Of a stretch of DNA of 64,000 bases, positions 11,655 through 55,531 are shown piece by piece (the first letter of the stretch is position 1; every line of letters starts with the position of its first letter). The stretch comes from an uncultured Bacteroidota bacterium (GTDB taxonomy: Bacteria; CLD3; SB21): the NCBI GenBank assembly GCA_964544475.1, contig CAZJBS010000007.1:43741-107740 (forward strand). Direction: 5' to 3'. The position numbers were made by a program, and so were the translations under genes. A model generated the notes under the pieces. That model saw only the letters and a list, made by a program, of their open reading frames with translations. It was not told where the DNA came from and ran no database searches.

Positions 11655-11658
11655 GGCC

Positions 11659-13131: not shown

Positions 13132-14178
13132 TCAGGTGGTGAACATCGTGGGATCGTGCGATTCACGCCGGGCGTCCGCCGTGGTGATCCAGCCTTTGCG
13201 GCAGGCCTCGATCAGGGATTGATCGAGCGTCTGCATATGATATTGCCCGCCGGTCTGAATGGCCGAATAGACCTGGTGGGTCTTGTTCTCCCGGATCAGG
13301 TGTCGTACGGCCGGCGTCGCGATGAGGATTTCATCGACGGCCACGCGCCCGTGACCGTCCGCCCGCTTCAACAGGCGCTGGGCGACGACGCCTTCGAGGG
13401 TATTGGCCAGCATGGTACGAATCTGCTGCTGTTGGTCCCCGGGAAACACGTCGATGATACGGTCGACGGTCTCGGCCGCACTTTTCGTATGCAGCGTGGC
13501 GAAGACCAGGTGACCGGTCTCCGCCGCCGTGATGGCCAGCGCAATCGTTTCCAAATCCCGCATTTCGCCCACGAGAATGACGTCCGGATCTTCGCGCAAG
13601 GCGCTTCGCAACGCATTGGCAAAGGATCGCGTATGGGCCTGCAATTCCCGTTGATTGATGAGACAGTTCTTCGGCGTGTGCGTGTACTCGATGGGGTCTT
13701 CAATTGTCAGAATATGATCGTGGCGCTCGGTATTGATCAGATCGACCATGCCGGCCAGCGTCGTGGATTTTCCGGAACCGGTCGGCCCCGTAACCACAAC
13801 GAGGCCTTTTTTCAGCCGGGCCAATTCATACAACCCCCCGGGCATATTCAACTCATCCAGCGAAAAAATCTTCATTGGAATCGTTCGAAACGCGGCGCCA
13901 ATGCCGCGCATTTGCTGAAACAGATTCACGCGAAATCGTGACAAACCCGGCATTTCATAGGCAAAATCCAGTTCGAGGGTCTTTTCAAACTGGTCCGTTT
14001 GTTCTTCGGTGAGCATCGCCAACAGCGCCTTGGACAACTGATGCGGATCGAGAGCGGCGGTTTCCAGCGCTTCGAGGTCGCCGTGCCGGCGCATGAGAGG
14101 CGTGTGGCCAGCCGTCAGGTGTACATCGGACGCGCCTTGCCGAATCGCCAGCGCCAAATATTCATCAATGGTTTTCAT
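13132..14178 (-). CDS. pilT: Type IV pilus retraction ATPase PilT
   Basis: 348 aa with Walker A GPTGSGKSTT. PilT/GspE-family Asp/His boxes and the motif ATLHT are present. The ATG overlaps the pilQ stop (ATGA). Confidence 0.9.
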   Translation of the reverse strand: MKTIDEYLALAIRQGASDVHLTAGHTPLMRRHGDLEALETAALDPHQLSKALLAMLTEEQTDQFEKTLELDFAYEMPGLSRFRVNLFQQMRGIGAAFRTIPMKIFSLDELNMPGGLYELARLKKGLVVVTGPTGSGKSTTLAGMVDLINTERHDHILTIEDPIEYTHTPKNCLINQRELQAHTRSFANALRSALREDPDVILVGEMRDLETIALAITAAETGHLVFATLHTKSAAETVDRIIDVFPGDQQQQIRTMLANTLEGVVAQRLLKRADGHGRVAVDEILIATPAVRHLIRENKTHQVYSAIQTGGQYHMQTLDQSLIEACRKGWITTADARRESHDPTMFTT

Positions 14179-15503
14179 AACGCGCCGGAACCTGTCCCTA
14201 TCAAACGCGGTGTGATAAAGATCAACAAATCGGTTTTCTTCTTTTCCTTGCCCGAGTTCGTGAACAATCTCCCCAGCAACGGGATATCGCCAAGCAACCA
14301 GACTTTTTCCTTGGTATCCACTTCGACCTCCTTCAAAAGTCCGCCGATAACGATCGACTCATCATGCCGCACGACGACCTGCGTCTTGGCGTATCGCTTG
14401 GAGATGATCGGCTGGCGGTTGTCGCCGGAACCGGTGTAGCCGATGATGTCCTCGATCGTCGGCTCGATCATCAGGCTGATCATCGAATCCGGATTGACGC
14501 GAGGCGTGACTCGGAGACTCACGTTCACATTTTTGTCCGTATAAGTGATGATATCGCCGGCCACGCTTCGGCTGATCGTCTGGATGGGGATGGTCGTGCC
14601 GACCGACAGTTCCGCTCTCTGGTTGTCCAGGGTCAGGATCTTCGGATTTGACAGCAATTTCGAATTCGTCTTGGTTTTCAGAAAATTCAGTGAAAACGTC
14701 AGACGATCGACCGAGAGCTTGCCCATGATGATATTCTGGAGTTTGTCTTCCAGCGGCGCCAGAGCCGTGAAATCCGTCTGGCTGTTGGGGTCGTCCGGAT
14801 TGCGGGCATCGAAGGTTTTGCCGGTGACCGCCGTCGGCAGGCCGACGCCGACTTTCTGATTGTTATCCAGCGTGGTCTCATACATGCGGACTTCGATCAT
14901 CAATTGATCCAACGGGCGATCCAGCATCTGCATAACCGAATCGATGACCGCCATCCGGAATGACGCGTCCGAAACCACCAGGAGGTTGGAACGTTTTTCT
15001 TCCGACGTCCCGTTGCGGGAGCGGCACATGGCTCCCATTTTGCCCCTCTTGGATAGGAAAGGCGACAGCGTTTCCTTGATATCCAGAGCGTCGGCGTACT
15101 TCAATTCGTAAACCCGTGTCGCCACCGTTGCGTTGCGTTCGGTTTCAATGGGTTTGACAAAAATGATGTCTCTTTCGATATAGTAGTCGTAGCCATTCGC
15201 TTTGAGGATGGTTTCCAGCGCCTCGTCAAGCGTGACGTCGTCAAAATGCACCGTGACCTTGCCCTTGACGTCGTGGCTGGCAACCAGATTGAGGTGATTT
15301 TGTTTGGACAAGAGGCGCAGTACGCCGAGGATATCGGCATCCCGGAAACTCATGGATAGTTTCGGCCGTGTGCTGTCCGCTTCCGCCACCTGGGCATGGC
15401 CGCCTTGAAACAAAGGCACAAGCAGGAGACCCATCCACACAACGACGGCCCATTCCATGGCCCGGACCGAACCGGCGGTTTCGCGGCATTTTCGCTTGTT
15501 CAT
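14175..15503 (-). CDS. pilQ: Type IV pilus secretin PilQ
   Basis: Signal peptide MEWAVVVWMGLLLVPLF. Secretin C-domain motifs VIGGLLKE...LLGDIPLLGRLF...LLIFITPRLI are present. The ATG overlaps the pilP stop (ATGA). Confidence 0.85.
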   Translation of the reverse strand: MNKRKCRETAGSVRAMEWAVVVWMGLLLVPLFQGGHAQVAEADSTRPKLSMSFRDADILGVLRLLSKQNHLNLVASHDVKGKVTVHFDDVTLDEALETILKANGYDYYIERDIIFVKPIETERNATVATRVYELKYADALDIKETLSPFLSKRGKMGAMCRSRNGTSEEKRSNLLVVSDASFRMAVIDSVMQMLDRPLDQLMIEVRMYETTLDNNQKVGVGLPTAVTGKTFDARNPDDPNSQTDFTALAPLEDKLQNIIMGKLSVDRLTFSLNFLKTKTNSKLLSNPKILTLDNQRAELSVGTTIPIQTISRSVAGDIITYTDKNVNVSLRVTPRVNPDSMISLMIEPTIEDIIGYTGSGDNRQPIISKRYAKTQVVVRHDESIVIGGLLKEVEVDTKEKVWLLGDIPLLGRLFTNSGKEKKKTDLLIFITPRLIGTGSGAL

Positions 15504-15991
15504 AAAGTCTCCTCGTCGGGCAATGACAATGTAAAAGTGAAATCATCTTTCTTGAGAACAACTTCGGTGGAACGGATCGCGACGACGCGGTAGCCGTGAA
15601 TCGACTCGCCGGTTGCCACAATCTGATCATTGATGAGGGCGTAGGCCTGACGGCCGTCGTGCGATACCGCCGTCAGTTCCAGATCGACGAGTCTGGGCAG
15701 CAGGATTTTTTGCAAAGCCTTGCCAATAAAATTTGCCGACGCGGCTTCGGGGTACTTTCGGAATGGATCCCGGCGCCAGCCTGCCACGGCTATGGTGGGC
15801 GGCGCGCCCGCCGTTTGGATTCCCGATTCCCGGACCGGAGCGGTCATTTCAGTGGTCACAGCAGCCGCCGATTCTTTCGCCGGAGCCACCGGCCTTGGCT
15901 TGGCGGTCACGCGATCATATACCGCATAGGCAGCGATGATGGCCAGGATGATCAGGAGCCGTTTTTGCGATTTGGACATCGGTTTTGACAT
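15500..15991 (-). CDS. pilP: PilP-like pilus assembly protein
   Basis: 163 aa with an N-terminal hydrophobic anchor (RLLIILAIIAAYAVY), a Pro/Ala-rich linker and a C-terminal beta domain. It lies between the PilO-like gene and pilQ. Confidence 0.6.
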   Translation of the reverse strand: MSKPMSKSQKRLLIILAIIAAYAVYDRVTAKPRPVAPAKESAAAVTTEMTAPVRESGIQTAGAPPTIAVAGWRRDPFRKYPEAASANFIGKALQKILLPRLVDLELTAVSHDGRQAYALINDQIVATGESIHGYRVVAIRSTEVVLKKDDFTFTLSLPDEETL

Positions 15992-16001
15992 GGCGTACCT
16001 G

Positions 16002-16556
16002 CTATCGTTTTGACGCCGGTTGCATTCGCACCCGGGCCAGGGTTTCTATGATCAGTTCTTCATCGGATGCTTCACGAACCATATTAAAATCCGTGAAACG
16101 GATGGTAAACGGCAGTTCGTCCAGATGTTCCAGCATCATGCCGAAATCCAGATAGCGTCCGCTGAAAGTCAATGAGAGCGGCAATTCAAAACTGGACGAG
16201 GACGTTCGCAGGCCGGCTATGAGAGAATCCGTCGAAAACGCCAGCTGCCCGATGCGCACGTGGTATTGAGCGGCCAGCTGGCTCAACGTTTTCATGGCCC
16301 GGGACAGGCTGTCCGGCTCAAGGATCCGTTTTCGCAATTCAACGACTCTCGTCTCCGCGTCACGGCATCGCATCAGGAGAGACGGGATATCGCGAACCCG
16401 GCTGATGGTTTCATTAATACGCGCATCGGTCTCAACCATCGAGGCCTGCAACTCGTTGACGTCGCGAAGGGCCGGCAACCATCCAAAAATCGTGTAGGCA
16501 GTTGCCGTCGATATCCCCATCGCAACCAGTATCCAGAATGTCAGGACGTTTTTCAT
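16002..16556 (-). CDS. pilO: PilO-like pilus assembly protein
   Basis: 184 aa with an N-terminal TM (LTFWILVAMGISTATAYTIFGWL) followed by coiled-coil. Its start overlaps the pilMN stop (ATGA). Confidence 0.65.
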   Translation of the reverse strand: MKNVLTFWILVAMGISTATAYTIFGWLPALRDVNELQASMVETDARINETISRVRDIPSLLMRCRDAETRVVELRKRILEPDSLSRAMKTLSQLAAQYHVRIGQLAFSTDSLIAGLRTSSSSFELPLSLTFSGRYLDFGMMLEHLDELPFTIRFTDFNMVREASDEELIIETLARVRMQPASKR

Positions 16557-18514
16557 GGCGTGTTCTTTTTTGGCGCAACAAGTTCAAAATAGGTCACATC
16601 GGCTTCCGGATCATGGCGTTTCTCCCGGAGCCGGATTTCCCCGAAAAAGGACGCTTTTTCGAGGGCATTGATGAAATTCAGTAAATGGACGTCGGCGAAA
16701 AACACGTCCAGATAAACGGCCCCTCGTACACGGAAGGCCATGGAGTCGCCGCTCGTGGCCGTCACCATGCCGTTGTTCTTCATGCGGGCCTGGCTTTCCA
16801 GACGCCGCCGTTCGATCTCGTTGAAGGACTGCCCCCAACTCACCCGGTCGATCACAATTTCTTTTGGCGTGACGGCGCTCAATATTCGCATGACGGACGC
16901 CATGGTCGAATCCGGCTGTGTTTCTTTCCTGAGGACACTCTCAGCGGCCTGCCATCGCCTGTATTGACGGTTGAGATCCTCATAAACCTGGCGGCGTTCG
17001 TTCATCGCATCCAACGAGGCGCTCATCCGGTCGCGAATTCCCTCCACGTCCAGTTTTCGGCGTTGCAGCAAAAAAGCCGTCGTGCCGATGGTGATGAGAA
17101 GCACCAGAAGGCCGGTGACCGCCCTGGATACCGTGCGTCGATATCGCCATTCCGTCTTCAGGTTTTCAGGGAGAAAACTGAAATCTGAAGAGCGGGATAG
17201 CGCCGAGCCGATGGTGTCCGCCATGGATGTATCCATCGCACGTCCTGACTTGTCGTCCGGACCGGCCATCGTGAGGAATTCCATCTTATGACCGATTTCC
17301 GTTTCCAAATACTGGCGGAGGCCCTTCAAACGACGGCCATTTCCGGTCAACCAGATCCGGTCGAATTGGTCTGCCTTGAATTGCTCCCTGTAGTAATCCA
17401 TCGACAGCCGGATTTCCGACAATAGCTTTTCGGCCACCGGACGCATCATTACACCGACTTCCGCATAAGGTATGTCGTGCGGCGTTTTCTCTTCGGATGA
17501 TTCGGGGGCCAGACCGACTTCCCTTTTGACAGACTCGGCCTCGCTTTCGCTCAGTGTGTGGGAGGACTGACCCACAAAAATCGTCTGCGTCAGCGCCTTC
17601 GTGAAGTGACGCCCGCCGGTCGGAATTTCGCGGGCGAACTGCAGAGACCCGTTGCCGTAGAACGTCACATGCGTACTATCCAGTCCGATATCCACCACAC
17701 ACCGGACACCTCCGGTTTCAGGCAGCAGCCGCACGAGATTCCATTGCGCCACCGGTCGGATGATCAACTTTGCGGCCAGGATCCCGGCCCGGTCAAGTAT
17801 GGCGAGATGACGTTTGATCGACTCTTCCTTGACGGCGACGACCATGACATGGAATTCATTGTCGGCTTTATCTTCATCCAGGATGACATAGTGTAACACC
17901 GTAGGAGCGTCGTTGAAAAAATGAAGTTCCTTTTTGTTTTTCCACAGAAGGGCGTCGTGAATCTCTTTTTTTGACACTTTCGGTATCCGCAGGAGACGGA
18001 TATTCATGTCGTGACCGGGCAAAATCGACGACACCGGCGCCGGGCCCGCTTTCAGGCGGCGCATAATCTGCTTCAGCCGTTGCGACACCATCAGGACATC
18101 CTCGGCCGCTCCCGGCTCCAACGGTTCTTCAATGGTGGCCATCACGTCCTGTCGCCGGCCCCACCGCCGGACTTTGGCGGCACGTATCGCGCTATTGGTG
18201 ATTTCCAATCCCACCGTCGTGCGGGCAGCCATCCGCTGCCACCACGCCAATCCACCCGCGGGCGCGAGATCCGTTTCCGGACAGTCGGCATCCAATGGAT
18301 TGGAAATCATCGGTCTCTCTTCAACCGGAGCCCGTTTCAGTTCCTGCTCATGAGCGGCAAGAAATTCTTCCACGGTTCGGTCGGATCCGTTGGATCGGTC
18401 CTGCGATTCCTTTTCCGTTTCCTCGGAGATCCCGCCCGACACGATGGCCTTCATCAATAACATGCTGGCCGGGTTGGCGGCCTCCGCGGTTTGGTTTCGT
18501 CGATCGTCAAACAT
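16553..18514 (-). CDS. pilMN: Fused PilM-PilN (actin-like ATPase fused to TM/coiled-coil PilN), with a possible ~95-aa N-terminal extension
   Basis: The PilM-like core begins MAARTTVGLEITNSAIRAAKV and contains VVDIGLDSTHVTFY. The PilN-like part (TEWRYRRTVSRAVTGLLVLLITIGTTAFLLQRRKL + coiled coil) is in the same ORF with no intervening stop. The ATG at 18514 overlaps the last codons of the ExeA-like gene (ATGTTTGA). An alternative internal start is 18232. Confidence 0.75.
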   Translation of the reverse strand: MFDDRRNQTAEAANPASMLLMKAIVSGGISEETEKESQDRSNGSDRTVEEFLAAHEQELKRAPVEERPMISNPLDADCPETDLAPAGGLAWWQRMAARTTVGLEITNSAIRAAKVRRWGRRQDVMATIEEPLEPGAAEDVLMVSQRLKQIMRRLKAGPAPVSSILPGHDMNIRLLRIPKVSKKEIHDALLWKNKKELHFFNDAPTVLHYVILDEDKADNEFHVMVVAVKEESIKRHLAILDRAGILAAKLIIRPVAQWNLVRLLPETGGVRCVVDIGLDSTHVTFYGNGSLQFAREIPTGGRHFTKALTQTIFVGQSSHTLSESEAESVKREVGLAPESSEEKTPHDIPYAEVGVMMRPVAEKLLSEIRLSMDYYREQFKADQFDRIWLTGNGRRLKGLRQYLETEIGHKMEFLTMAGPDDKSGRAMDTSMADTIGSALSRSSDFSFLPENLKTEWRYRRTVSRAVTGLLVLLITIGTTAFLLQRRKLDVEGIRDRMSASLDAMNERRQVYEDLNRQYRRWQAAESVLRKETQPDSTMASVMRILSAVTPKEIVIDRVSWGQSFNEIERRRLESQARMKNNGMVTATSGDSMAFRVRGAVYLDVFFADVHLLNFINALEKASFFGEIRLREKRHDPEADVTYFELVAPKKNTP

Positions 18515-19340
18515 AAGCCACCTCGCGCTGGCGGATGCTCCGCGTGACGACGTCTTCGTCGATCATATCGAGATGCTCGCCCAGACGGGTCATAAACGCC
18601 TCGTGGCAAAGGTGGATCGCCTTTCTCGGGAATCCATGACTGTATTCATACACCTGGTCGAGGGCTCTTTTTGTGAAAACACGGTGCAGCGGTTTGTCGC
18701 CCGTCCGTCGGAGACGGTGATCGATCAACCGTTCCAATTCGTCACGCGTGAAAGGTTCGAGCACAAGCGCCGACGCGATGCGATCCATGAAATTGGGCAT
18801 GGAACGGATGCGTTCGGTGAATTCGAGTTGGGCCAGTATGACGACCTGGATGAGTTTGGATGTGTTCGTCTCGAAATTCAGGAGGCCCCGAATGGCCTCC
18901 ATCATCGGCGGTGTCAGCTTCTGCCCTTCATCGATGATAAGGACCGGGACTTTTTTTTCATTAACGCCTTTGTAATACAGGTAACTCTGCAGGCTTTCTT
19001 TGATCTCCAATACGGAGGATGCGTTGTGTTTGATTTCAAAAAGCCTGGCCAGGTGACTCAGGAATTCCAGCTCGTTTTCAAACTGCGGGTCGAGAATCAG
19101 TCTGAACAGGTAATCGGGCTTATCGTGAAACAGCCTCATCAGGATGCGCCCGATGGTTGTCTTGCCCGTGCCCACGTCGCCCAGCACAAGGCTCAGACCC
19201 GACCTCAACCGGATCGCGCTTTCCAGAGACTGCAGGCAGGAGACGTGTTGTCGTGAGAAGTAAAACAATTTTGGATCCGGGGAAATCGAGAATGGATTTC
19301 GCTTCCGGCACATCGCAGCGGATTCGGGAAAACCGGTCAT
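18507..19340 (-). CDS. ExeA/GspA/MshM-like P-loop ATPase
   Basis: 277 aa with Walker A LVLGDVGTGKTT and Walker B VLIIDEGQ. The overall layout resembles secretion-associated ExeA/MshM ATPases. Its start overlaps the GGDEF gene stop. Confidence 0.75.
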   Translation of the reverse strand: MTGFPESAAMCRKRNPFSISPDPKLFYFSRQHVSCLQSLESAIRLRSGLSLVLGDVGTGKTTIGRILMRLFHDKPDYLFRLILDPQFENELEFLSHLARLFEIKHNASSVLEIKESLQSYLYYKGVNEKKVPVLIIDEGQKLTPPMMEAIRGLLNFETNTSKLIQVVILAQLEFTERIRSMPNFMDRIASALVLEPFTRDELERLIDHRLRRTGDKPLHRVFTKRALDQVYEYSHGFPRKAIHLCHEAFMTRLGEHLDMIDEDVVTRSIRQREVAYV

Positions 19341-20785
19341 GGCGTCACCCCGTGCTTTTCGGATTCGGCGCCCACGACGCGGTTACGGCCTTCGGCCTTT
19401 GCCCGATACAGTCCCGCGTCCGCTTTATGGATGAGTTCGTCGCTCCGCGTCGAATCGTCCGGAAAGGTCGCGACGCCGATGCTGATGGTGAGATGGCCGA
19501 GCGGCTGGGCTTCCTGGTTGAAGAAATGCGTTTCCTCGATTTTTTGGCGCAGTTTTTCGGCAATCATCATGGCCTGGGCCTTTTTCGTTTCCGGCAGTAT
19601 CAGCGCAAATTCTTCACCGCCGTACCGGCATTCCATATCGCAGACCCGTGTGGTCTCGCGCAAAAGGGCTCCGACGGTTTTCAAGACCTCATCACCGGCC
19701 TGGTGGCCATTGGTGTCATTGTACGTCTTGAAGTGATCCACGTCGATCAGGACCAGAGACATGCTCAGGAAATGACGCAAAGAGCGCTGCATTTCCCGGT
19801 CAAGCTCTTCATTGAAGAAACGCCGGTTGTACAATCCGGTCAGGCCGTCCGTGATCGCCTGATGCTTGAAGTTGCGGTAGCTTTCATGCAGATAATTATA
19901 GACGTCGATGTGACCCAGTGTGAGACCCGCGGCATAGGCATACCGTTGGAGCAGGTCCTTGTGCTCCATGACGCGCTTACGGTCGCTCCGCCCAACCATC
20001 AGGATAGCGTTGGTCGTGGTGTGGCCTTTGTAGTTTTCGATCATCTCCTCGACATCGTCGATGCTGACGATGGGTATCAGGAAGATGACTTCCGAATTCA
20101 GGACCTGACGAAGCTGGTGCATGTGCGCGAGGTTTCGGCTGTCCGTCCGAAGGCCGTCGTCATCGTCCACCAGAAAATAACTTTTGCGATGGTCGACCAG
20201 ATCGCAATACGGCCGGTGGTCGATCCGAACGTCCAGTTCGGCGATCGAATCCAGCGAGACATTGGACCATGACATCGGCACGAGTTTGTTCTCCTGGCGG
20301 TCCACCACCCACAGAATGGCGCTGGAGAAATCGAGTTCCTCGCAGAGAGCCGACGTCACTTTTTTCAGAAGTACTTTACGATCGGTGGTGGCAAAGAGAC
20401 TCTGCGTGGCGTTGTTGAGGACGATCAGTCTCTGGGCATAATTGCGTTCCTGCAGCACAACCTGCTTAAGCCATTGGGCCTCCCTCTCCAAAACCATGTT
20501 TTCTTCGACGAACTTCCGGACCGTGTTCTGGGTTTTTTCATACGCGGCATCGCGATCGCGGGAAGTCAGGTAGGTCAGCCATCTCACGAGGAGACGACGC
20601 AGGCGGAGCGAAATCTTCTCCCGCCAGCCGGCGACGATACGCCACAACCCGGACACCGTCATCCCGACCGACAATCGGCGACCGGAATCAGCGGTCTCGG
20701 CGGCCACACATCCATCGTTCAGACTCCATTCGGGACGCATCGACGACGAAATCCAGATGAGGGACGATTCACGCAGCGGGTTCAT
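19337..20785 (-). CDS. Diguanylate cyclase (GAF-like N-terminal region + GGDEF domain)
   Basis: GGDEF active site RYGGEEFALILPE with upstream DGLTGLYNRRFF. The first ~95 aa are Arg/Trp-rich, so the true start may be internal (for example ATG 20497, MVLEREAQW). Confidence 0.8.
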   Translation of the reverse strand: MNPLRESSLIWISSSMRPEWSLNDGCVAAETADSGRRLSVGMTVSGLWRIVAGWREKISLRLRRLLVRWLTYLTSRDRDAAYEKTQNTVRKFVEENMVLEREAQWLKQVVLQERNYAQRLIVLNNATQSLFATTDRKVLLKKVTSALCEELDFSSAILWVVDRQENKLVPMSWSNVSLDSIAELDVRIDHRPYCDLVDHRKSYFLVDDDDGLRTDSRNLAHMHQLRQVLNSEVIFLIPIVSIDDVEEMIENYKGHTTTNAILMVGRSDRKRVMEHKDLLQRYAYAAGLTLGHIDVYNYLHESYRNFKHQAITDGLTGLYNRRFFNEELDREMQRSLRHFLSMSLVLIDVDHFKTYNDTNGHQAGDEVLKTVGALLRETTRVCDMECRYGGEEFALILPETKKAQAMMIAEKLRQKIEETHFFNQEAQPLGHLTISIGVATFPDDSTRSDELIHKADAGLYRAKAEGRNRVVGAESEKHGVTP

Positions 20786-21146
20786 GGCTGTATGGGAAAT
20801 GGTTGTCGGGTGAATACGAAAACCGGGCTTCGGCCGATTCGAGGAGTGCCGCCATTTTTCGACTTGCGCTGAGCCAGAAACGGTTTTTCAGCGGAACGGA
20901 ATTCGCGGTCAGATCTTTGACGGCCAGTTCTTCCAGCGACGCCAGAGACTCGGCGGCGTCTTCCGTCCGTTCGGACCTTCGCAGCATGGTCTTTTCCCAA
21001 TGCGCCAAAGCTGGCGAGGGAGCCTGGATATCCTGGATGAGCACGGATTCGAGTTCTTCCAAATCATACAGGACCGACCCCGGAGCCCCATGGCTCTCTT
21101 TGGGAAGGTCGTACATGATAATAAAGGGTGACTTTGAGGTTTTCAT
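20769..21146 (-). CDS. Small acidic hypothetical protein embedded in the pilus operon
   Basis: The track ORF starts at TTG 21221. An internal ATG at 21146 gives MKTSKSPFIIMYDLPKESHG...; no recognisable domain. Confidence 0.4.
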   Translation of the reverse strand: MKTSKSPFIIMYDLPKESHGAPGSVLYDLEELESVLIQDIQAPSPALAHWEKTMLRRSERTEDAAESLASLEELAVKDLTANSVPLKNRFWLSASRKMAALLESAEARFSYSPDNHFPYSHEPAA

Positions 21147-21156
21147 GGTGAGGCCT

Positions 21157-22152
21157 TTACAGTTGCTTCCAATGACGCCATATGGTGATGTATGGCATTC
21201 CGCTGAGTGCGTACGAACCAAAGAACTTCCTGATGTATGACGCGCGATAGTAGACGTTTATCTTGTTCTCGTTGCCAAGACCCTCCACATTGGCGCCGCC
21301 GAAAATGCCGCCGTATACGGTTTCCTTGTTGTGCAGATCCACGTCCTGCTGCACCACTGAAACCGGACTGGGAAGGTAAAGCACGCCTTCGAGTTTCTGG
21401 CTGTTTTTGAGTGTGACATCGCCCTGAACCACGACGATCCCAAAAATCTGACCGCTGTTCTTGACTTCGAGATTGCCCTCGATGTATACCACATTCGGCG
21501 TATCGCTCGGCGTGCCATTGGGACGCGGATGATAAAAATTGGCATCATTGCCCGTCGGGTACGAGGCCCCGTTGGACACGGAAAGACTGCCTGAAAAATA
21601 ATGACCCTGGGCAATAGCCATCTGTTTGAGACGCTCTGTATCCATTTCAGGAAGTTCCGTGGCGTATTCGCGGGCCAGCATGGGATTTGGATTTCCGGCC
21701 GAGTCACGGACCGTGACATCGTTCAGACTTCCGCTGATGTATATGGCAAAACCCGAGATATCCGTCAGCCGCATTCGAAAGGTTTGCCCGGATGTTGCGC
21801 CGCCGTACGTCCCGATCACTCTCACTTGAAGCGTGTCATGCAGCGCCGGGTATAACGTGCTGTCTTCCGCAATCACCGTGACGCTGCCCGATCCGATGGC
21901 CTGCTGGCTCGCATTCCAATGCCAATTGCCCGACGTCAGGGATTTCCGGATGCCATACTCGAGGCCCGACTGAGCGGCATAAAAGGCCCGGGCACTGGCA
22001 ACGTCCACCGCCAGCGACCGCGCGTTATTGTCCGTGAGCGACACCAATACAAAACCGGCCAATGTAAGGATGGTCACCAGTGATATGGCGGCCACCAGCG
22101 TCGACCCTTTTTCCTGGTGCACAAAGTCAGTATGTCGGTTGTTGTTTTGCAT
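21157..22152 (-). CDS. PilX-like pilus-associated protein (PilX_N-type N-terminal hydrophobic segment)
   Basis: 331 aa with N-terminus MQNNNRHTDFVHQEKGSTLVAAISLVTILTLAGFVLVS, resembling the PilX N-terminal motif (no G/F prepilin cleavage site). The remainder is Gly/Ser/Thr-rich and beta-strand-like. Confidence 0.55.
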   Translation of the reverse strand: MQNNNRHTDFVHQEKGSTLVAAISLVTILTLAGFVLVSLTDNNARSLAVDVASARAFYAAQSGLEYGIRKSLTSGNWHWNASQQAIGSGSVTVIAEDSTLYPALHDTLQVRVIGTYGGATSGQTFRMRLTDISGFAIYISGSLNDVTVRDSAGNPNPMLAREYATELPEMDTERLKQMAIAQGHYFSGSLSVSNGASYPTGNDANFYHPRPNGTPSDTPNVVYIEGNLEVKNSGQIFGIVVVQGDVTLKNSQKLEGVLYLPSPVSVVQQDVDLHNKETVYGGIFGGANVEGLGNENKINVYYRASYIRKFFGSYALSGMPYITIWRHWKQL

Positions 22153-22384: not shown

Positions 22385-22897
22385 CTATCTCATGTTCCGC
22401 AGTAGCACCGTTCGATCCACCGAATACGCATAGCCCCGGTAGCTCACAGAAAATACATAGCGCACCCTGGCGATCTGGCTCGTCGGCGAGGCACTGGTCC
22501 ATGCCGTGCCATCCCACTTGTAATAGGAGAATACAAAACCCGAGACTCCCGACGCCAGTACATCGTTGTTACGCAAGATTCGTTGGGCGCTGTACTGGAG
22601 ATCGATGGCGGCATCGGCGTTGTTCGTCAGCTTGAATCGAGTGGACGTGGCGATGAGAATGCTGGTTCTGTTCTTCACGCTTTTGGCTTCGCGCTCGAGC
22701 ACATCCGCCGCCCGTTGCGCGTCCTGGACGGCGACGGATGAACGCAAAACATCCGCGTAGATGTCCGTGGAGGTATTGAAAGACAAATACACACCTGTCA
22801 TGATGACCCCGGACAATGTCGCATAGAGCATGAGCTCTATGAGCGTGAATCCCCGTTCATCATCCATGGCATCTTTTTTAGAAAAGTGGCGTTTCAT
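22385..22897 (-). CDS. Type IV minor pilin (prepilin-type N-terminus)
   Basis: N-terminus ...DERG|FTLIELMLYATLSGVIMTGV with Glu at +5 after the putative cleavage Gly. The leader is atypical: either 24 aa, or acidic (MDDERG) if it starts at ATG 22867. Confidence 0.7.
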   Translation of the reverse strand: MKRHFSKKDAMDDERGFTLIELMLYATLSGVIMTGVYLSFNTSTDIYADVLRSSVAVQDAQRAADVLEREAKSVKNRTSILIATSTRFKLTNNADAAIDLQYSAQRILRNNDVLASGVSGFVFSYYKWDGTAWTSASPTSQIARVRYVFSVSYRGYAYSVDRTVLLRNMR

Positions 22898-22901
22898 GGG
22901 A

Positions 22902-23285
22902 TCAACTCTGCGTCAGCCATGTGACGATCTGTACCGCCGAAATCAAATCATGGGACACTCGGACCGTCACCTCGGCATAGGCCACTCCGGAAAATGTCTT
23001 TCCGGCGGTCACAATGGTAGTGGTTCGCGTGTATCCGCCGGCCAGATTCTCCGCGGCATAACGCCCGGGCGTTGTAACCCACGAGTAGCCCCGGCTCGGG
23101 GACATCTTGTCGGCGGTAATGTCCTCCAATTTCTGTTCACATAGCGCCAGAGCCCTGGATTCGATTTCATACGTTGCGCTGTGCAGAAAGGTATAGCTGT
23201 ACAAATCCACCAGGGCGGGCACGGTAATGCCGACAAACAACAGCGTCGTGATGATCTCCAGCGTGGAATAACCTTTTTCATTCAT
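22902..23285 (-). CDS. Type IV minor pilin (PilV-like)
   Basis: An internal ATG at 23285 gives MNEKG|YSTLEIITTLLFVGITV (Gly-1, Glu+5). The track ORF extends to 23360 and overlaps pilC. Confidence 0.65.
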   Translation of the reverse strand: MNEKGYSTLEIITTLLFVGITVPALVDLYSYTFLHSATYEIESRALALCEQKLEDITADKMSPSRGYSWVTTPGRYAAENLAGGYTRTTTIVTAGKTFSGVAYAEVTVRVSHDLISAVQIVTWLTQS

Positions 23286-23301
23286 GATCGTCGCCCCGCT
23301 T

Positions 23302-24513
23302 TTAGTGTTTACCCATGTGGCCCAACATGTCCCACATCGGCATGAATATCGCCAACGCAATGAAGAGTATCGCGCCGCCCAGCAAAACGGTAATCATCGG
23401 CTCGATCAAGGTGGTCAGATTCTTGACCGTGTGATCGACCTCTTCGTCGTAGTATTCGGCAATATTGGTCATCATCGTGTCGAGCGAGCCGGATTTTTCG
23501 CCGATCGCAATCATTTGCACGACGATGGCCGGAAAGATCCGGCTCTTGCGCAATGGCTGGGCCAGACCCTGGCCGTCCTTCACACCATTGAGCGCCCGGT
23601 AAACTTCATCCGTCACGACGCTGTTCCCGATGGTTTGCGCGATGATGGTCAGGGTCTGGATGATCGGCAACCCGCTGCGATTGAGAGTCTCAAACGTTTT
23701 CGAAAACCGCGACAGATACGTCTTGACATTCAACTCACCGAAAACCGGAAGGTGCAGTTTGCGTTCGTCCCACCATCGGCGTCCTCTCGGCGTCCTCATG
23801 AAATAGCGCAGGCCGATCAGCAAGGCCACCGCCGCCGGTATGACGATCATCCAGTACTGCGTGATCGCCGTATTGATCCCGATCAGAATCTGGGTCGGCA
23901 GGGGCAGGTCAACTTTCATTCGTTTGAAAATGTCAACGAATTTGGGCACGACCATGACAATCAGAACGACAAACGCAATCAGGATGCCGAAAAGGACCAT
24001 GATGGGATAACGCGTGGCTTTTTTGATGTTTTGGCGGATTTCCATATCGTGGGACAGAAAAGAAACCAGCCGCAAGAGCACTTCATCCAGTACGCCGCCG
24101 GTTTCACCCACCTTGATCATGCTGACATACAGATCCGAAAAGGCCTCCTTATGGGGTTTCAAGGCGTCGCACAGGGGTTTGCCGCTTTGAATGTCGCCGC
24201 TGACCTTCTTCAGGATGACCCGCATCGATTCCGAGGCCGCCTGCTCCTCCAGCGCCTGGAGACAGCCCAATAAGGGTACGCCCGCCTTGAACAGCGTCGC
24301 AAACTGTTTCGTGAATACGATGACTTCCTTGGGATCGATTTTCTTCTTGGAAAAGGCGCCGGCGAAGAGGCCGGGCCGGACTTCGGAGATTTGAAGTGGA
24401 AGGTAATTCAGACGATCCAGATACTCGGTGACAAATCCGATGTTCGGCGCTTCGATTTTGTCGACGACGACCTGCCCGGTGTGGTTGATGGCGCGGAACT
24501 GAAAATGGGACAT
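23302..24513 (-). CDS. pilC: Type IV pilus inner-membrane platform protein PilC (GspF family)
   Basis: ATG at 24513 is preceded by AAGGAG (ggattaaaggagacgccATG). It contains two GspF-type repeats and three TM segments; its sequence is typical of PilC. Confidence 0.9.
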   Translation of the reverse strand: MSHFQFRAINHTGQVVVDKIEAPNIGFVTEYLDRLNYLPLQISEVRPGLFAGAFSKKKIDPKEVIVFTKQFATLFKAGVPLLGCLQALEEQAASESMRVILKKVSGDIQSGKPLCDALKPHKEAFSDLYVSMIKVGETGGVLDEVLLRLVSFLSHDMEIRQNIKKATRYPIMVLFGILIAFVVLIVMVVPKFVDIFKRMKVDLPLPTQILIGINTAITQYWMIVIPAAVALLIGLRYFMRTPRGRRWWDERKLHLPVFGELNVKTYLSRFSKTFETLNRSGLPIIQTLTIIAQTIGNSVVTDEVYRALNGVKDGQGLAQPLRKSRIFPAIVVQMIAIGEKSGSLDTMMTNIAEYYDEEVDHTVKNLTTLIEPMITVLLGGAILFIALAIFMPMWDMLGHMGKH

Positions 24514-24523
24514 GGCGTCTCCT

Positions 24524-26238: not shown

Positions 26239-26667
26239 CTAAACGACCTGCGCCATCGGCGGATACATGCTGGCGACAGGCCGGCCCGCAGGGCGTTTCC
26301 CGGCGATCAGGCTGCCGATCTTGTCCAGGAGTTCCGGCGGATCGTAGGGTTTGTGCATATACGCATCGGCCCCCATTTCCATTCCGGTATGCCGGTCGAT
26401 GTCACGGGCCCGCGAGGTAAGCATGATGATGGGAATGTGGCGGCGCTTTTCGTCCGACTTCAGGAGCCGGCATATTTTGAAACCGTCCATTTTGGGCAAC
26501 AAGACGTCCAGCAGAATGAGGTCCGGACTTTCTGTGCGCGCCTTGAAAAGCCCGTCCAGGCCGTCCGCGCTGGACAGAACCTCATAACCCTCGGACTGCA
26601 AACGCATGGTCAGTACGCGCACGAGATTGGGATAATCATCCACAATCAGTATTCTGGGAATCGGCAT
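26239..26667 (-). CDS. Single-domain response regulator (CheY-like)
   Basis: Begins MPIPRILIVDDYPNLVRVL. Contains LILLDVLLPKMDG and HKPY. It overlaps the upstream kinase by 32 nt. Confidence 0.8.
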   Translation of the reverse strand: MPIPRILIVDDYPNLVRVLTMRLQSEGYEVLSSADGLDGLFKARTESPDLILLDVLLPKMDGFKICRLLKSDEKRRHIPIIMLTSRARDIDRHTGMEMGADAYMHKPYDPPELLDKIGSLIAGKRPAGRPVASMYPPMAQVV

Positions 26668-27868: not shown

Positions 27869-27878
27869 GATCTCCCGG

Positions 27879-29520: not shown

Positions 29521-29543
29521 GGGAACTCCTCGTTAAGGGTGAC

Positions 29544-29575
29544 CAGGCTCCCATACCATACCGGATGGGAGCCTG
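29544..29575 (-). terminator. Strong hairpin (11-bp stem) 15 nt downstream of pilA stop, no T-run
   Basis: On the minus strand the sequence reads caggctcccat-ccggtatggt-atgggagcctg. It is a candidate attenuator or partial terminator between pilA and downstream genes. Confidence 0.4.
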
Positions 29576-29589
29576 AGTCTTGATGGAAA

Positions 29590-29931: not shown

Positions 29932-29980
29932 TTTTCTTCCTCCAAAGAGATTAAGAGTTTGATTCGTTGGCCTACTCTCC

Positions 29981-29996
29981 ATCAACATCCGTGCCG
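29981..29996 (-). promoter_or_regulatory. Candidate sigma54 (-24/-12) promoter element upstream of pilA (imperfect)
   Basis: On the minus strand the sequence reads cGGCACGgatgTTGAt, against the consensus TGGCACG-N4-TTGCW. The -24 GG is present, but the -12 GC is replaced by GA. It lies ~55 nt upstream of the pilA ATG, and a PilR-like sigma54 activator is encoded in the same cluster. Confidence 0.3.
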
Positions 29997-55512: not shown

Positions 55513-55531
55513 ATGGCGCCTCGTTCTTAGT

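What the first reader, a model, noticed from the sequence alone, without database searches (positions are those of the whole stretch)
18507..20785. GGDEF diguanylate cyclase and ExeA/MshM-like ATPase translationally coupled inside the pilMNOPQ unit
A GGDEF protein with an intact RYGGEEF site and an ExeA/GspA/MshM-type P-loop ATPase (GDVGTGKTT / LIIDEGQ) are inserted, with overlapping stop/start codons, directly upstream of pilMN. ExeA/MshM-type proteins are known from T2SS and MSHA pili, not from classical T4aP clusters. A co-encoded cyclase suggests local c-di-GMP control of pilus assembly, perhaps a hybrid T4aP/MSHA-like regulatory arrangement.
Basis: partly seen in the sequence, partly recalled or inferred. 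Interest (0 to 1): 0.5.

Follow-up and report, generated by a model that had tools for sequence, protein, structure and literature searches.

The report
Pilus operon with own c-di-GMP cyclase
An uncultured bacterium's type IV pilus gene cluster carries its own c-di-GMP-making enzyme and an MshM-type assembly ATPase just ahead of the pilus base genes; the ATPase is a standard part of this kind of cluster, while the enzyme occurs only in this small group of relatives.

Summary
On the minus strand, 19337-20785 encodes a cytoplasmic coiled-coil/GAF/GGDEF protein with intact RYGGEEF and an RxxD I-site. 18507-19340 encodes a 277-aa AAA+ ATPase. The two genes overlap by ATGA, and the ATPase gene overlaps a PilM-PilN fusion gene by ATGTTTGA.

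The ATPase is MshM-like: short, soluble, no peptidoglycan-binding domain, and 28% identical end to end to Aeromonas MshM. It was not inserted. Relatives in other uncultured bacteria, some labelled Marinimicrobia, KSB1 or Omnitrophica, almost always have it just upstream of PilM(N)-O-P-secretin or of a short membrane protein plus secretin.

The downstream protein always starts with a conserved N-terminal peptide, and natural ATPase::PilMN fusions exist. I infer that the ATPase docks there as an assembly factor. An ExeA-like gene next to pilMNOPQ is already published for Pseudomonas aeruginosa.

The GGDEF gene is the clade-specific element. It occupies the slot that a small MerR-like gene holds in 53 of 68 relatives. 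PilB in this cluster passes the MshE-type c-di-GMP-binding model, so a self-contained cyclase-to-PilB circuit is plausible but unproven.

This is a new variant of known systems, of moderate interest.

The parts
19337..20785 (-). Cytoplasmic diguanylate cyclase: variable or disordered N-terminus, long helix, GAF-like domain, GGDEF domain
   Evidence: PF00990 at E 2.1e-50; TIGR00254 at 194.9 bits against a cutoff of 37.4; weak GAF_2 hit. The AlphaFold model has a helix at 46-132, an alpha/beta domain at 136-290 and GGDEF at 317-472. The nearest solved structures are phytochrome-GGDEF and GAF-GGDEF cyclases. No TM-like segment. 32 listed clusters at 47-99% identity form a discrete ortholog group.
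19607..19627 (-). RYGGEEF active-site motif of the cyclase
   Evidence: Translation checked. R387-E392 are invariant and F393 is nearly invariant (one L) across 13 orthologs.
19637..19648 (-). I-site RVCD (RxxD), five residues upstream of GGEEF
   Evidence: Translation checked. R380 and D383 are invariant in 13 orthologs.
18507..19340 (-). MshM-type (ExeA-family) AAA+ ATPase, soluble, 277 aa
   Evidence: AAA_22 at E 1.4e-16; TIGR03015 at E 1.2e-43 but below its cutoff. 28% identity with E 3e-26, end to end, to Aeromonas caviae MshM. The model has pLDDT 91.8, shows an AAA+ base plus lid, and is closest to ORC1/Cdc6 and TnsC. No TM and no PG-binding domain.
19155..19181 (-). Walker A GDVGTGKTT
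   Evidence: G54, G57, G59, K60 and T61 are invariant in 61 homologs.
18921..18941 (-). Walker B LIIDEGQ
   Evidence: D137, E138 and Q140 are invariant in 61 homologs.
16553..18514 (-). PilM-PilN-like fusion protein (653 aa): cytoplasmic PilM domain, one TM near residues 462-485, periplasmic C-terminal part
   Evidence: PilM_2 at E 2.2e-18; TIGR01175 at 108.8 bits, below its cutoff of 133; Amuc_1101 family at E 1.4e-23. TM scan. An 8-nt overlap with the ATPase gene is also present in L005, L006, L007, L096 and L098.
18434..18475 (-). Conserved N-terminal peptide of PilM-N (NPASMLLMKAIVSG), proposed docking site for the ATPase
   Evidence: A strict regex finds the motif [RKL]L[LM]xx[ILV][RKTV]x near the N-terminus of the gene downstream of the ATPase in 15 of 18 PilM(N)-type and 26 of 33 short-type loci. 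The background rate is 1 in 309 windows. The same peptide follows the ATPase domain in the natural fusions P0432, P0378 and P0484.
16002..16556 (-). PilO-like protein
   Evidence: PF04350 at E 2.3e-5, above its cutoff.
15500..15991 (-). PilP/GspC-like small periplasmic protein
   Evidence: Only weak hits: CdsD_C, SctD C-terminus and GspC_delta. The assignment rests on its position between PilO and the secretin, which is conserved in relatives.
14175..15503 (-). Short secretin (442 aa; N0/STN domain, one N domain, secretin domain)
   Evidence: PF00263 at E 5.4e-45 and STN at E 7e-10. PilQ TIGR02515 scores 237.6 (cutoff 284), GspD 226 (cutoff 351) and MshL 115 (cutoff 250).
13132..14178 (-). PilT retraction ATPase
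   Evidence: TIGR01420 at 475.7 bits against a cutoff of 319.1.
24524..26227 (-). PilB/GspE-type extension ATPase with an N-terminal MshEN module
   Evidence: T2SSE at E 2.3e-141 and PF05157 MshEN at E 2.5e-22. TIGR02533 scores 632.8 (cutoff 630.25); TIGR02538 scores 637 (cutoff 675.65).
26054..26212 (-). 53-residue MshE-type c-di-GMP-binding motif of PilB (residues 6-58)
   Evidence: NF053729 at 47.7 bits against a cutoff of 38. Aligned to Aeromonas MshE. Against the relaxed motif of PMC5013675, repeat 1 has 1 deviation and repeat 2 has 3.
21157..22152 (-). Conserved 331-aa membrane-anchored protein of unknown family, probably the first gene of the sub-operon
   Evidence: No Pfam or NCBIfam hit. 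An N-terminal TM is present. It is conserved directly upstream of the GGDEF gene in L005, L006, L096, L097 and L098.
20769..21146 (-). 125-aa ORF overlapping the GGDEF start by 17 nt; orphan
   Evidence: Called in Logan contigs of the same organism. No family hit. No tblastn match in any related locus.
23302..24555 (-). PilC platform protein
   Evidence: T2SSF at E 2.5e-56, two repeats.
22385..23360 (-). Two minor (pseudo)pilin genes (22902-23360 and 22385-22897)
   Evidence: N_methyl motif in the 170-aa protein. The position is conserved in relatives.
26239..29988 (-). Upstream part of the cluster: pilin (29590-29988), 293-aa unknown protein, PilD prepilin peptidase (27879-28655), histidine kinase, REC-only response regulator
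   Evidence: N_methyl at E 2.1e-8, and HisKA/HATPase_c and Response_reg hits. PilD is assigned from the L005 ortholog, which carries A24_N_bact and Peptidase_A24.
10380..13107 (-). Sigma-54-dependent response regulator (11659-13107) and REC-histidine kinase (10380-11747) downstream of pilT
   Evidence: Sigma54_activat at E 4.5e-69, with REC and HTH_8. The same genes follow pilT in L006 and L098.

Best explanation
The two genes belong to one co-oriented, tightly packed gene cluster for a type IVa-like pilus that resembles the MSHA system. The host is an uncultured bacterium.

(1) The 277-aa protein is an MshM-type AAA+ ATPase. It is soluble and has only the AAA+ base and lid.
- In this whole protein family, the gene sits directly upstream of the inner-membrane protein that connects to the secretin, and usually overlaps it.
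- I infer that the ATPase binds the conserved N-terminal cytoplasmic peptide of that partner, here residues 14-27 of the PilM-PilN fusion.
- I infer that it acts as an ATP-dependent switch or assembly factor for the alignment complex and secretin, as ExeA does with ExeB and ExeD.

(2) The 482-aa protein is a catalytically competent, product-inhibited diguanylate cyclase. A GAF-like sensor domain controls it through a long dimerising helix. I infer that its c-di-GMP acts on the MshEN module of the PilB encoded in the same cluster and favours pilus extension, as shown for V. cholerae MshE. PilT opposes this.

(3) In evolutionary terms, the cyclase gene sits where most relatives have a small MerR-like gene. 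The cyclase is therefore the derived, clade-specific addition.

Shown here: the domain identities, motifs, gene overlaps, conservation of gene order, the partner peptide and the natural fusions.
Inferred: physical docking, the assembly role, c-di-GMP binding by this PilB, and the direction of signalling.
For: Identity and motifs.

MshM relationship:
- The ATPase aligns end to end with Aeromonas MshM at E 3e-26.
- That MshM lies in a verified msh locus, with MshL above its cutoff, MshE carrying the c-di-GMP motif, and a CsrD-like MshH.

Family-wide linkage to the secretin:
- 43 of 45 metagenomic loci with enough downstream sequence have a secretin on the same strand.
- In 9 it follows PilM(N), with PilO- and PilP-like genes detected in some.
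- In 34 it follows one ~200-aa bitopic protein.
- The same holds in L007, L008, L009 and L010.

Coupling to the partner:
- The 8-nt overlap between the ATPase gene and PilM(N) recurs in L005, L006, L007, L096 and L098.
- The partner's N-terminal peptide is conserved, against a background of 1 in 309 windows.
- Aeromonas MshN has the same layout, with a coupled start, an N-terminal peptide and then a TM.
- Natural fusions of ATPase, peptide, PilM, TM and PilN-like region exist in three representatives of separate 50%-identity clusters.
- Long relatives carry a TM plus LysM or SPOR peptidoglycan-binding domains, following the ExeA logic (PMC4098917).

Fold: a confident AAA+ model, closest to ORC/Cdc6 and TnsC switch-type ATPases.

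Cyclase:
- GG[DE]EF and RxxD are invariant in 13 orthologs.
- The architecture is GAF-GGDEF.
- The order GGDEF, ATPase, PilMN is conserved in relatives whose ATPase is 58-71% identical.
- In L098 the sub-operon stays together although pilB and pilC are not adjacent.
- The order is also conserved in L097.
- Ten GGDEF and ATPase homolog pairs, beyond the window's own cluster, share identical longest-contig lengths.

Receptor:
- PilB passes NF053729.
- The motif is conserved in the clade.
- The mechanism has precedent in MshE, M. xanthus PilB and C. perfringens PilB2 (PMC5013675, PMC11656802, PMC4624765).
Against: There is no experimental evidence, and the organism is uncultured.

On the c-di-GMP circuit:
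- The second repeat of the PilB motif deviates from even the relaxed published motif at three positions: S for a hydrophobic residue, R for G/A/S, and H for Q. The first residue of both repeats is K, not R. Binding is therefore not assured.
- In V. cholerae, none of the cyclases that feed MshE interacted with it, which points to a global rather than a local c-di-GMP pool (PMC11656802).
- The GGDEF/ATPase overlap itself is not conserved. Spacing in relatives ranges from a 32-nt overlap to a 37-nt gap.

On the ATPase:
- In P. aeruginosa, loss of the ExeA-like PA5037 did not affect PilQ multimerisation. A secretin-assembly role therefore cannot simply be carried over.
- The nearest solved folds are DNA-handling ATPases, and the usual upstream partner in relatives is a MerR-type HTH protein. 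Both fit a regulatory or DNA-related role at least as well as an assembly role.
- Pairwise similarity to E. coli GspA is not significant.
Confidence: 0.55

Rival explanations
1. The cyclase is an output of the pilus machine, not an input. Its activity would be set by contact with the alignment complex (PilM-N/PilO) or with the MshM-like ATPase. It would then report pilus activity or surface contact to the cell-wide c-di-GMP pool, as proposed for SadC and PilO in P. aeruginosa.
For: - The GGDEF gene travels with the ATPase-pilMNOPQ-pilT sub-operon rather than with pilB and pilC; in L098 pilB and pilC are not adjacent.
- Its N-terminal ~85 residues are variable or disordered, as is typical of a docking tail.
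- There is a published precedent for an interaction between the T4P alignment complex and a cyclase (bioRxiv 10.1101/2020.10.17.343988 and PMC8795499).
- The GGDEF domain of SadC is among the structural neighbours (4wxo).
Against: - SadC is a membrane protein. This cyclase has no TM segment and carries a conserved GAF-like sensor, which points to a soluble ligand as its input.
- The cluster also encodes a likely c-di-GMP receptor in PilB, so the input model explains more of the parts.
- The two models do not exclude each other.
Confidence: 0.2
2. The MshM-like ATPase is a regulatory or nucleic-acid-handling switch, not an assembly factor. It would work with its upstream-encoded partner, a MerR-type HTH protein in most lineages and the cyclase here, for example to control expression of the pilus genes or to handle DNA taken up through the pilus.
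For: - 53 of 68 relatives have a ~77-aa MerR_1 gene ending at the ATPase start.
- The nearest solved folds are ORC1/Cdc6 and TnsC, which are DNA-bound AAA+ switches.
- Some database entries label members of this family 'transposase'.
- PA5037 loss did not alter PilQ multimers.
Against: - Linkage to a secretin is nearly universal.
- Natural fusions to PilM-PilN exist.
- Long forms have a TM plus periplasmic LysM or SPOR domains. This places the protein at the envelope machine and not on DNA.
- Homology to MshM and the ExeA family is shown.
- AAA_22 fold similarity to ORC and TnsC is generic for this clade.
Confidence: 0.12
3. The cluster is a type II secretion system, or a secretion-dedicated pseudopilus, rather than a surface pilus. 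The ATPase would then be a GspA/ExeA equivalent in the strict sense.
For: - The extension ATPase passes the GspE equivalog cutoff (632.8 against 630.25) but not the PilB one.
- The secretin has an N0/STN N-terminus and lacks AMIN domains.
- The PilP-like protein hits GspC_delta weakly.
- JGI names family members 'general secretion pathway protein A'.
Against: - A PilT retraction ATPase, well above its cutoff, lies in the same operon.
- PilM- and PilO-type proteins are present rather than GspL and GspM.
- No GspC with a PDZ domain was detected. The 331-aa protein that could fill a GspK/PilX-type slot matches no family.
- The ATPase lacks the TM, C39-like and PG_binding_1 parts seen in E. coli GspA.
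Confidence: 0.08

Closest known systems
MSHA pilus system of Vibrio and Aeromonas (mshH-I-J-K-L-M-N-E-G-F), including MshM and c-di-GMP-dependent MshE
   Same: - A short soluble MshM-type ATPase, 28% identical end to end to Aeromonas MshM.
- An extension ATPase with an N-terminal MshEN c-di-GMP motif.
- A single-locus organisation.
- A GGDEF-family gene at the head of the assembly genes. In Aeromonas this is MshH, which is CsrD-like.
- The gene after the ATPase is translationally coupled and starts with a short cytoplasmic peptide followed by a TM (MshN).
- Retraction by PilT (PMC9815625).
   Different: - The gene order differs. Here the ATPase precedes PilM-N. In msh it lies between the secretin MshL and the TPR protein MshN.
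- No MshN/TPR partner is present here.
- The secretin fails the MshL equivalog (115 against 250) and scores higher on PilQ.
- This cluster contains pilD and pilT, which msh loci lack (PMC6668835).
- The GGDEF protein here is an intact GAF-GGDEF cyclase. MshH is a degenerate GGDEF-EAL protein of the CsrD type.
ExeA/GspA-ExeB/GspB secretin-assembly complex of type II secretion (Aeromonas hydrophila; E. coli GspAB)
   Same: - An AAA_22-type ATPase encoded next to a bitopic inner-membrane partner and linked to a secretin.
- Long relatives of the window protein have a TM plus a periplasmic peptidoglycan-binding domain, as ExeA does (PMC4098917).
   Different: - The window protein has no TM, no C39-like domain and no PG_binding_1 domain. 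E. coli GspA has the latter two.
- Its partner is a PilM-PilN fusion and not GspB.
- Pairwise similarity to E. coli GspA is not significant.
PA5037 (PA14_66580) of Pseudomonas aeruginosa, an ExeA-like protein encoded beside pilMNOPQ
   Same: An ExeA-family ATPase genetically linked to the T4aP alignment and secretin genes. Its loss lowers twitching and piliation (PMC6321873).
   Different: - It is not known to be translationally coupled to pilM.
- PilQ multimers were unaffected.
c-di-GMP control of T4P motors and alignment complexes: MshE, M. xanthus PilB, C. perfringens PilB2, FimX-PilB, SadC-PilO
   Same: - A cyclase, a c-di-GMP-binding extension ATPase and an antagonistic PilT are all present.
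- The logic matches published models (PMC5013675, PMC11656802, bioRxiv 10.1101/2020.10.17.343988).
   Different: - Here the cyclase is encoded inside the pilus operon, directly before the ATPase and pilMN genes.
- In the studied systems the relevant cyclases are encoded elsewhere. For MshE they appear to act through the global pool.
TIGR03015 XrtA/PEP-CTERM system-associated ATPase
   Same: It is the best-scoring curated HMM, at E 1.2e-43 over the full length. Aeromonas MshM also hits it best, at 232.6 bits.
   Different: The score of 149.5 is far below the cutoff of 324.5. No PEP-CTERM or exosortase context is present.

Membership tests
GGDEF diguanylate cyclase (PF00990 / TIGR00254) | Domain HMM above the curated cutoff | tested here: met
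   PF00990 at 171.1 bits (cutoff 23.8); TIGR00254 at 194.9 bits (cutoff 37.4).
GGDEF diguanylate cyclase (PF00990 / TIGR00254) | Intact GG[DE]EF active site | tested here: met
   RYGGEEF at residues 387-393. R387-E392 are invariant and F393 is nearly invariant (one L) in 13 orthologs.
GGDEF diguanylate cyclase (PF00990 / TIGR00254) | Allosteric I-site RxxD five residues upstream of GG[DE]EF (optional feature of the family) | tested here: met
   R380-V-C-D383; R and D are invariant in 13 orthologs.
GGDEF diguanylate cyclase (PF00990 / TIGR00254) | c-di-GMP synthesis from GTP | not testable with these tools
   Needs an enzyme assay or an in vivo reporter.
MshM (MSHA pilus biogenesis ATPase) | Short soluble AAA+ protein homologous over its whole length to a bona fide MshM | tested here: met
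   28% identity at E 3e-26 over residues 13-275 against Aeromonas caviae MshM (L015:8977-9864), which lies in a locus whose MshL passes TIGR02519. No TM.
MshM (MSHA pilus biogenesis ATPase) | Encoded within an msh locus, between mshL and the TPR gene mshN, in a locus that lacks a prepilin peptidase | tested here: not met
   Here the order is GGDEF, ATPase, PilM-N, PilO, PilP, secretin, PilT, and pilD is in the cluster. The secretin scores 115 bits on MshL against a cutoff of 250. MSH criteria are taken from PMC6668835.
ExeA/GspA (type II secretion assembly ATPase) | N-terminal AAA_22-type ATPase domain with Walker A and B | tested here: met
   AAA_22 at E 1.4e-16; GDVGTGKTT and LIIDEGQ.
ExeA/GspA (type II secretion assembly ATPase) | Transmembrane segment plus a periplasmic peptidoglycan-binding region (PG_binding_1 / C39-like) | tested here: not met
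   Only AAA families hit. The 277 aa are fully accounted for by the AAA+ base and lid. No TM. E. coli GspA shows both extra domains in the same scan.
ExeA/GspA (type II secretion assembly ATPase) | Significant sequence similarity to a characterised GspA | tested here: inconclusive
   E. coli K-12 GspA matches only at the P-loop, E 0.028, but that GspA is itself divergent (AAA_22 at E 1.5e-7). Aeromonas ExeA was not available. A Rhodovulum plasmid gene annotated exeA matches at 28.5% identity, E 6e-23.
TIGR03015 XrtA/PEP-CTERM system-associated ATPase | Score above the curated cutoff, with a PEP-CTERM/exosortase context | tested here: not met
   149.5 bits against a cutoff of 324.5. The context is a pilus cluster.
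   No DnaA or IstB model appears at E <= 0.01 in Pfam or NCBIfam. The ORC/Cdc6 and TnsC resemblance is at fold level only, at 14-20% identity.
MshEN c-di-GMP receptor domain (in PilB) | Domain models above the curated cutoff | tested here: met
   NF053729 at 47.7 bits (cutoff 38) over residues 6-57; PF05157 at 79.1 bits (cutoff 23.1).
MshEN c-di-GMP receptor domain (in PilB) | [quoted passage not shown] | tested here: inconclusive
   The spacing and all the Leu and Gly positions of the RLG/LxxxL core are kept. Repeat 1 has K for R and N for G. Repeat 2 has K for R, S at a hydrophobic position, R for G, and H for Q. Aeromonas MshE also has K in repeat 2 and Q for G in repeat 1.
MshEN c-di-GMP receptor domain (in PilB) | Binding of c-di-GMP | not testable with these tools
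   Needs ITC or DRaCALA with PilB(1-145).
Type IVa pilus machinery | PilT-type retraction ATPase | tested here: met
   TIGR01420 at 475.7 bits against a cutoff of 319.1.
Type IVa pilus machinery | PilB, PilM and PilQ above their NCBIfam cutoffs | tested here: not met
   PilB 637 against 675.65; PilM 108.8 against 133; PilQ 237.6 against 284.35. GspE passes at 632.8 against 630.25. The system is T4aP-like but divergent.

The most novel reading that the evidence does not exclude
The MshM/ExeA-family ATPase is a general, previously unrecognised component of pilus and secretin machines in many uncultured bacteria. It would dock onto a conserved N-terminal peptide of PilM(N) or of a short bitopic partner and gate assembly of the alignment complex and secretin. 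In this clade its usual MerR-like companion has been replaced by a dedicated GAF-regulated cyclase. The pilus operon would then carry a complete private c-di-GMP circuit of sensor, cyclase, PilB receptor and PilT antagonist, physically organised around the ATPase-PilM hub.
Probability: 0.2. Interest if true: 0.6.

Novelty: new variant of a known kind. Interest (0 to 1): 0.4.

Why it matters
If the proposed mechanism is right, three things follow.
- The cluster would be a compact natural example of c-di-GMP signalling dedicated to one machine. Cyclase, receptor ATPase and antagonist would be encoded in one transcription unit. That bears on the long-running question of local versus global c-di-GMP pools.
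- The function of MshM, which remains poorly defined, would get a testable hypothesis: docking on the N-terminal peptide of the next-encoded membrane protein. Natural fusions and peptidoglycan-binding long forms support this idea.
- A recurrent MerR-like/ATPase/secretin module would be flagged in poorly studied bacteria.

None of this changes the basic picture of type IV pili. It extends known parts into a new arrangement.

Tried and rejected
- **Species-representative genomes.** A genome-contig scan with the single ATPase protein found only distant planctomycete, Clostridia and Nonomuraea hits. It missed the 58-71% relatives, so the organism could not be placed.
- **Taxonomy from SufB.** A SufB homolog search gave 81-83% identity across Acidobacteria, Armatimonadota and Bacteroidota. 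NCBI labels the close relatives only as 'bacterium', so this was uninformative.
- **RNA genes.** An Rfam scan of the window found no RNA genes to help with taxonomy or regulation.
- **Comparison with E. coli K-12 GspA.** Pairwise similarity was not significant, so it could not serve as a membership test.
- **PDB sequence search with the ATPase.** Only marginal ORC1 and ClpB hits appeared. No ExeA or MshM ATPase domain has a solved structure.
- **Sigma-54 promoter consensus.** 5 matches were found against 4.9 expected by chance, and none lay in a relevant gap.
- **Sigma-70 promoter and terminator scans.**
  - Promoter-like sites were near chance.
  - Terminator-like sites were more frequent than in shuffles, but none on the minus strand within the cluster is strong.
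  - No transcription-unit boundary could be called.
- **MerR-like gene in the GGDEF clade.** A search of the window, L005, L006 and L096 found nothing.
- **AFDB fold search.** The library was not available.
- **Degenerate-receptor reading of the GGDEF protein.** Rejected because all catalytic motifs are invariant across the orthologs.
- **IstB, DnaA or TniB-type transposition or replication helper.** Rejected because of the HMM results and the universal secretin linkage.

Full report
**1. What is at the coordinates**

All genes in this part of the window are on the minus strand. In the direction of transcription the order is:
- pilin (29590-29988)
- a 293-aa unknown protein
- PilD
- a histidine kinase
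- a REC-only response regulator
- PilB (24524-26227)
- PilC
- two minor pilins
- a 232-nt gap
- a 331-aa membrane-anchored unknown protein (21157-22152)
- a 125-aa orphan ORF
- the GGDEF protein (19337-20785)
- the AAA+ ATPase (18507-19340)
- a 653-aa PilM-PilN fusion (16553-18514)
- PilO
- a PilP-like protein
- a 442-aa secretin
- PilT (13132-14178)
- a sigma-54 response regulator
- a REC-histidine kinase

These assignments rest. The stop/start overlaps are real: ATGA between the GGDEF and ATPase genes, and ATGTTTGA between the ATPase and PilM-N genes.

**2. The GGDEF protein**

It matches PF00990 at E 2.1e-50 and TIGR00254 at 194.9 bits, far above the cutoffs. RYGGEEF occupies residues 387-393. 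An RxxD I-site (R380-V-C-D383) lies five residues upstream.

In an alignment of 13 orthologs at 47-66% identity, these residues and the other listed catalytic positions are invariant. The one exception is F393, which is L in a single ortholog. The protein has no TM-like segment.

The AlphaFold model (mean pLDDT 75.5) shows four parts:
- a disordered N-terminus, residues 1-48
- one long helix, 46-132
- an alpha/beta domain, 136-290, that Pfam weakly calls GAF_2
- the GGDEF domain, 317-472

The nearest solved structures are phytochrome-linked and GAF-linked cyclases, followed by WspR and PleD. The protein is therefore a soluble, sensor-regulated, product-inhibited cyclase. Its first ~85 residues are not conserved, so the true start codon is uncertain.

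**3. The ATPase**

Pfam gives AAA_22 at E 1.4e-16. The best curated model is TIGR03015 at E 1.2e-43, covering residues 14-266, but the score of 149.5 bits is below the cutoff of 324.5.

A tblastn search of plasmid records happened to hit an Aeromonas caviae chromosome that was filed as a plasmid. I checked that the hit lies in a genuine msh locus:
- MshL scores 279 bits on TIGR02519 against a cutoff of 250.
- MshE carries the c-di-GMP motif.
- MshH is CsrD-like.
- MshN is a TPR protein.

The window protein aligns with that MshM from end to end, at 28% identity and E 3e-26. It has no TM and no peptidoglycan-binding domain. E. coli GspA shows C39-like and PG_binding_1 domains in the same kind of scan. 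Pairwise similarity to that divergent GspA is not significant.

A confident model (pLDDT 91.8) is a plain AAA+ base plus lid. Its closest solved folds are ORC1/Cdc6 and TnsC, which are switch or loader ATPases rather than unfoldases. The protein is therefore MshM-type within the ExeA family. It is not ExeA/GspA in architecture.

**4. Conservation of the arrangement**

The same protein occurs in many public assemblies.

Relatives whose ATPase is 71%, 62% and 58% identical keep the order 33x-aa gene, GGDEF, ATPase, PilM-N (L005, L006, L096). L097 and L098 do so as well.

In L098, pilB and pilC are not adjacent. The block from the 321-aa gene through GGDEF, ATPase, PilM-N, PilO, PilP, secretin and PilT to the sigma-54 regulator still stays together. 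The cyclase gene therefore belongs to the alignment-complex sub-operon.

GGDEF orthologs form a discrete group of 32 listed clusters, after which scores drop sharply. Beyond the window's own cluster, ten of them share identical longest-contig lengths with ATPase orthologs, which implies they sit on the same contigs.

**5. The wider family, and which part is clade-specific**

At 41-49% identity the ATPase is common in other uncultured bacteria. Some sources label the hits Marinimicrobia, KSB1 or Omnitrophica. The representative library holds 503 clusters at E <= 1e-30.

I fetched 80 metagenomic loci and located neighbouring genes with tblastn. The counts were:
- 43 of 45 loci with enough downstream sequence carry a secretin on the same strand.
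  - In 9 it follows PilM(N), with PilO- and PilP-like genes detected in some.
  - In 34 it follows a single ~200-aa bitopic protein.
- None of the 80 has an adjacent GGDEF gene.
- 53 of 68 have a ~77-aa MerR_1-type gene ending at the ATPase start. This is also seen in L007, L008 and L010.

No such MerR-like gene exists in the window or in L005, L006 or L096.

The ATPase is thus a standard part of this type of machine. The cyclase is the clade-specific element and sits in the slot that the MerR-like gene usually occupies.

**6. How the ATPase may connect to the machine (inferred)**

The protein encoded right after the ATPase always starts with a short conserved peptide. This holds whether it is a PilM, a PilM-N fusion or the short bitopic protein. 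Examples are:
- ATNRLLEVIRG in the more distant PilM(N) proteins
- SPEEKLLRLIRG in the short type
- NPASMLLMKAIVSG in the window

A strict regex finds the peptide in 41 of 51 N-termini, against 1 of 309 background windows. The misses are near-variants or mis-called starts.

Further observations point the same way:
- Aeromonas MshN has the same layout. Its start overlaps the MshM stop, and it begins MSVINQMLKDLDRR followed by a TM.
- Three representatives of separate 50%-identity clusters (P0432, P0378, P0484; 943-1010 aa) are natural fusions of ATPase, IAVNKLLDVLRK-type peptide, PilM, TM and a PilN-like region. The C-terminal part of P0432 aligns to window PilM-N residues 356-629 at E 1e-13.
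- Other close relatives are long forms with a TM and periplasmic LysM or SPOR domains. This mirrors the way ExeA binds peptidoglycan and works with ExeB to assemble the ExeD secretin (PMC4098917).
- The 8-nt overlap between the ATPase and PilM-N genes recurs in five relatives.

I infer that the ATPase docks on this peptide and acts in assembly or gating of the alignment complex and secretin.

One published result counsels caution. In P. aeruginosa, loss of the ExeA-like PA5037 beside pilMNOPQ reduced twitching and piliation but not PilQ multimers (PMC6321873). The same paper shows that ExeA-type genes beside classical T4aP genes are already known.

**7. The c-di-GMP circuit (inferred)**

PilB carries PF05157. 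More specifically, it passes the MshE-related c-di-GMP motif model NF053729 at 47.7 bits against a cutoff of 38, over residues 6-57. The 24+5+24 layout and the Leu and Gly core are kept, and the motif is conserved in the clade.

Compared with the published motifs (PMC5013675), repeat 1 has one deviation from the relaxed pattern. Repeat 2 has three (S, R and H). Binding is therefore likely but not assured.

MshE needs c-di-GMP to extend MSHA pili. M. xanthus PilB and C. perfringens PilB2 also bind it (PMC4624765, PMC11656802).

The simplest reading is that a signal sensed by the GAF domain drives the cyclase, the c-di-GMP produced acts on PilB, and this favours pilus extension against PilT.

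An alternative is the reverse flow, as proposed for SadC and PilO. In that case the machine sets the cyclase's activity. The two readings do not exclude each other.

**8. What kind of system this is**

PilT is clearly present. PilB, PilM and PilQ fall just below their NCBIfam cutoffs, while GspE just passes. The secretin scores higher on PilQ than on MshL.

Against the MSH definition of Denise et al. (PMC6668835), the cluster shares:
- an MshM-like gene
- the single-locus layout

It differs in:
- containing pilD and pilT
- gene order
- lacking an MshN-like partner

It is best called a divergent T4aP-like system with MSHA-like features.

The host lineage could not be named.

**9. Verdict**

- The domain calls, the I-site, the MshEN receptor and the conserved order all hold.
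- The 'inserted ATPase' idea and the 'not in T4aP' claim do not hold.

The new elements are an operon-encoded cyclase in place of a MerR-like gene, and a family-wide signature linking the ATPase to a partner peptide. This is a new variant of known systems and of moderate interest (0.4).

Noticed in passing
L008:9781-10014; L010:6728-6958; most of L016-L095, directly upstream of the ATPase gene: A ~77-aa MerR_1-type HTH gene ends at, and often overlaps, the start of the MshM-like ATPase gene in 53 of 68 metagenomic loci. It is absent from the window's clade. Its role beside a secretin-linked ATPase is unexplained.
   Followed up: partly
window 18434-18475 (-); N-termini of the genes downstream of the ATPase in L005-L010 and L016-L098: A conserved N-terminal peptide ([ST]x[RKL]L[LM]xx[ILV][RKTV][GSD]) is present in whatever protein is encoded after the ATPase: PilM, a PilM-N fusion, or a ~200-aa bitopic protein. 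Aeromonas MshN has a comparable peptide-then-TM layout.
   Followed up: yes
P0432, P0378, P0484 (fusions); P0364, P0365, P0390, P0413, P0498, P0507 (long forms): Natural fusions of the ATPase to PilM-PilN exist. Long forms also exist with a TM plus a periplasmic extension: Pfam calls LysM in P0364 and P0365 and SPOR in P0390, while the extensions of P0413, P0498 and P0507 resemble these only by eye. P0454 joins a secretin C-terminus to the ATPase in a single ORF, which may be a gene-calling artefact.
   Followed up: partly
window 20769-21146 (-): A 125-aa ORF lies between the 331-aa gene and the GGDEF gene and overlaps the GGDEF start by 17 nt. It has no family hit and no counterpart in related loci, where the GGDEF gene directly follows the 32x-aa gene. 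It may be a species-specific gene or a non-coding spacer.
   Followed up: partly
window 22153-22384: A 232-nt non-coding gap lies inside an otherwise tightly packed cluster. Similar gaps of 133-187 nt occur in L005, L006, L096 and L097, and the L098 block starts at the gene just after this point. It is probably an internal promoter or sub-operon boundary, but no sigma-54 or sigma-70 consensus stood out.
   Followed up: partly
window 28639-29520 (-): A 293-aa protein with no family assignment lies between the pilin gene and pilD. It is conserved in the same position in L005 (285 aa).
   Followed up: no
window 21157-22152 (-): A 331-aa protein with an N-terminal TM and no Pfam or NCBIfam hit always lies directly upstream of the GGDEF gene in the clade. 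It may be a PilX/GspK-like minor pilin or a tip protein.
   Followed up: no
window 54001-56000: GC content drops to 0.47 against 0.53-0.59 elsewhere in the window. The region includes a 345-aa ORF at 54475-55512 (-) and may be foreign DNA.
   Followed up: no
L015 (NZ_AP026896.1): A 4.94-Mb Aeromonas caviae record is filed in the plasmid collection as 'plasmid pKAM479_3'. It is evidently a chromosome and carries a complete msh locus.
   Followed up: partly
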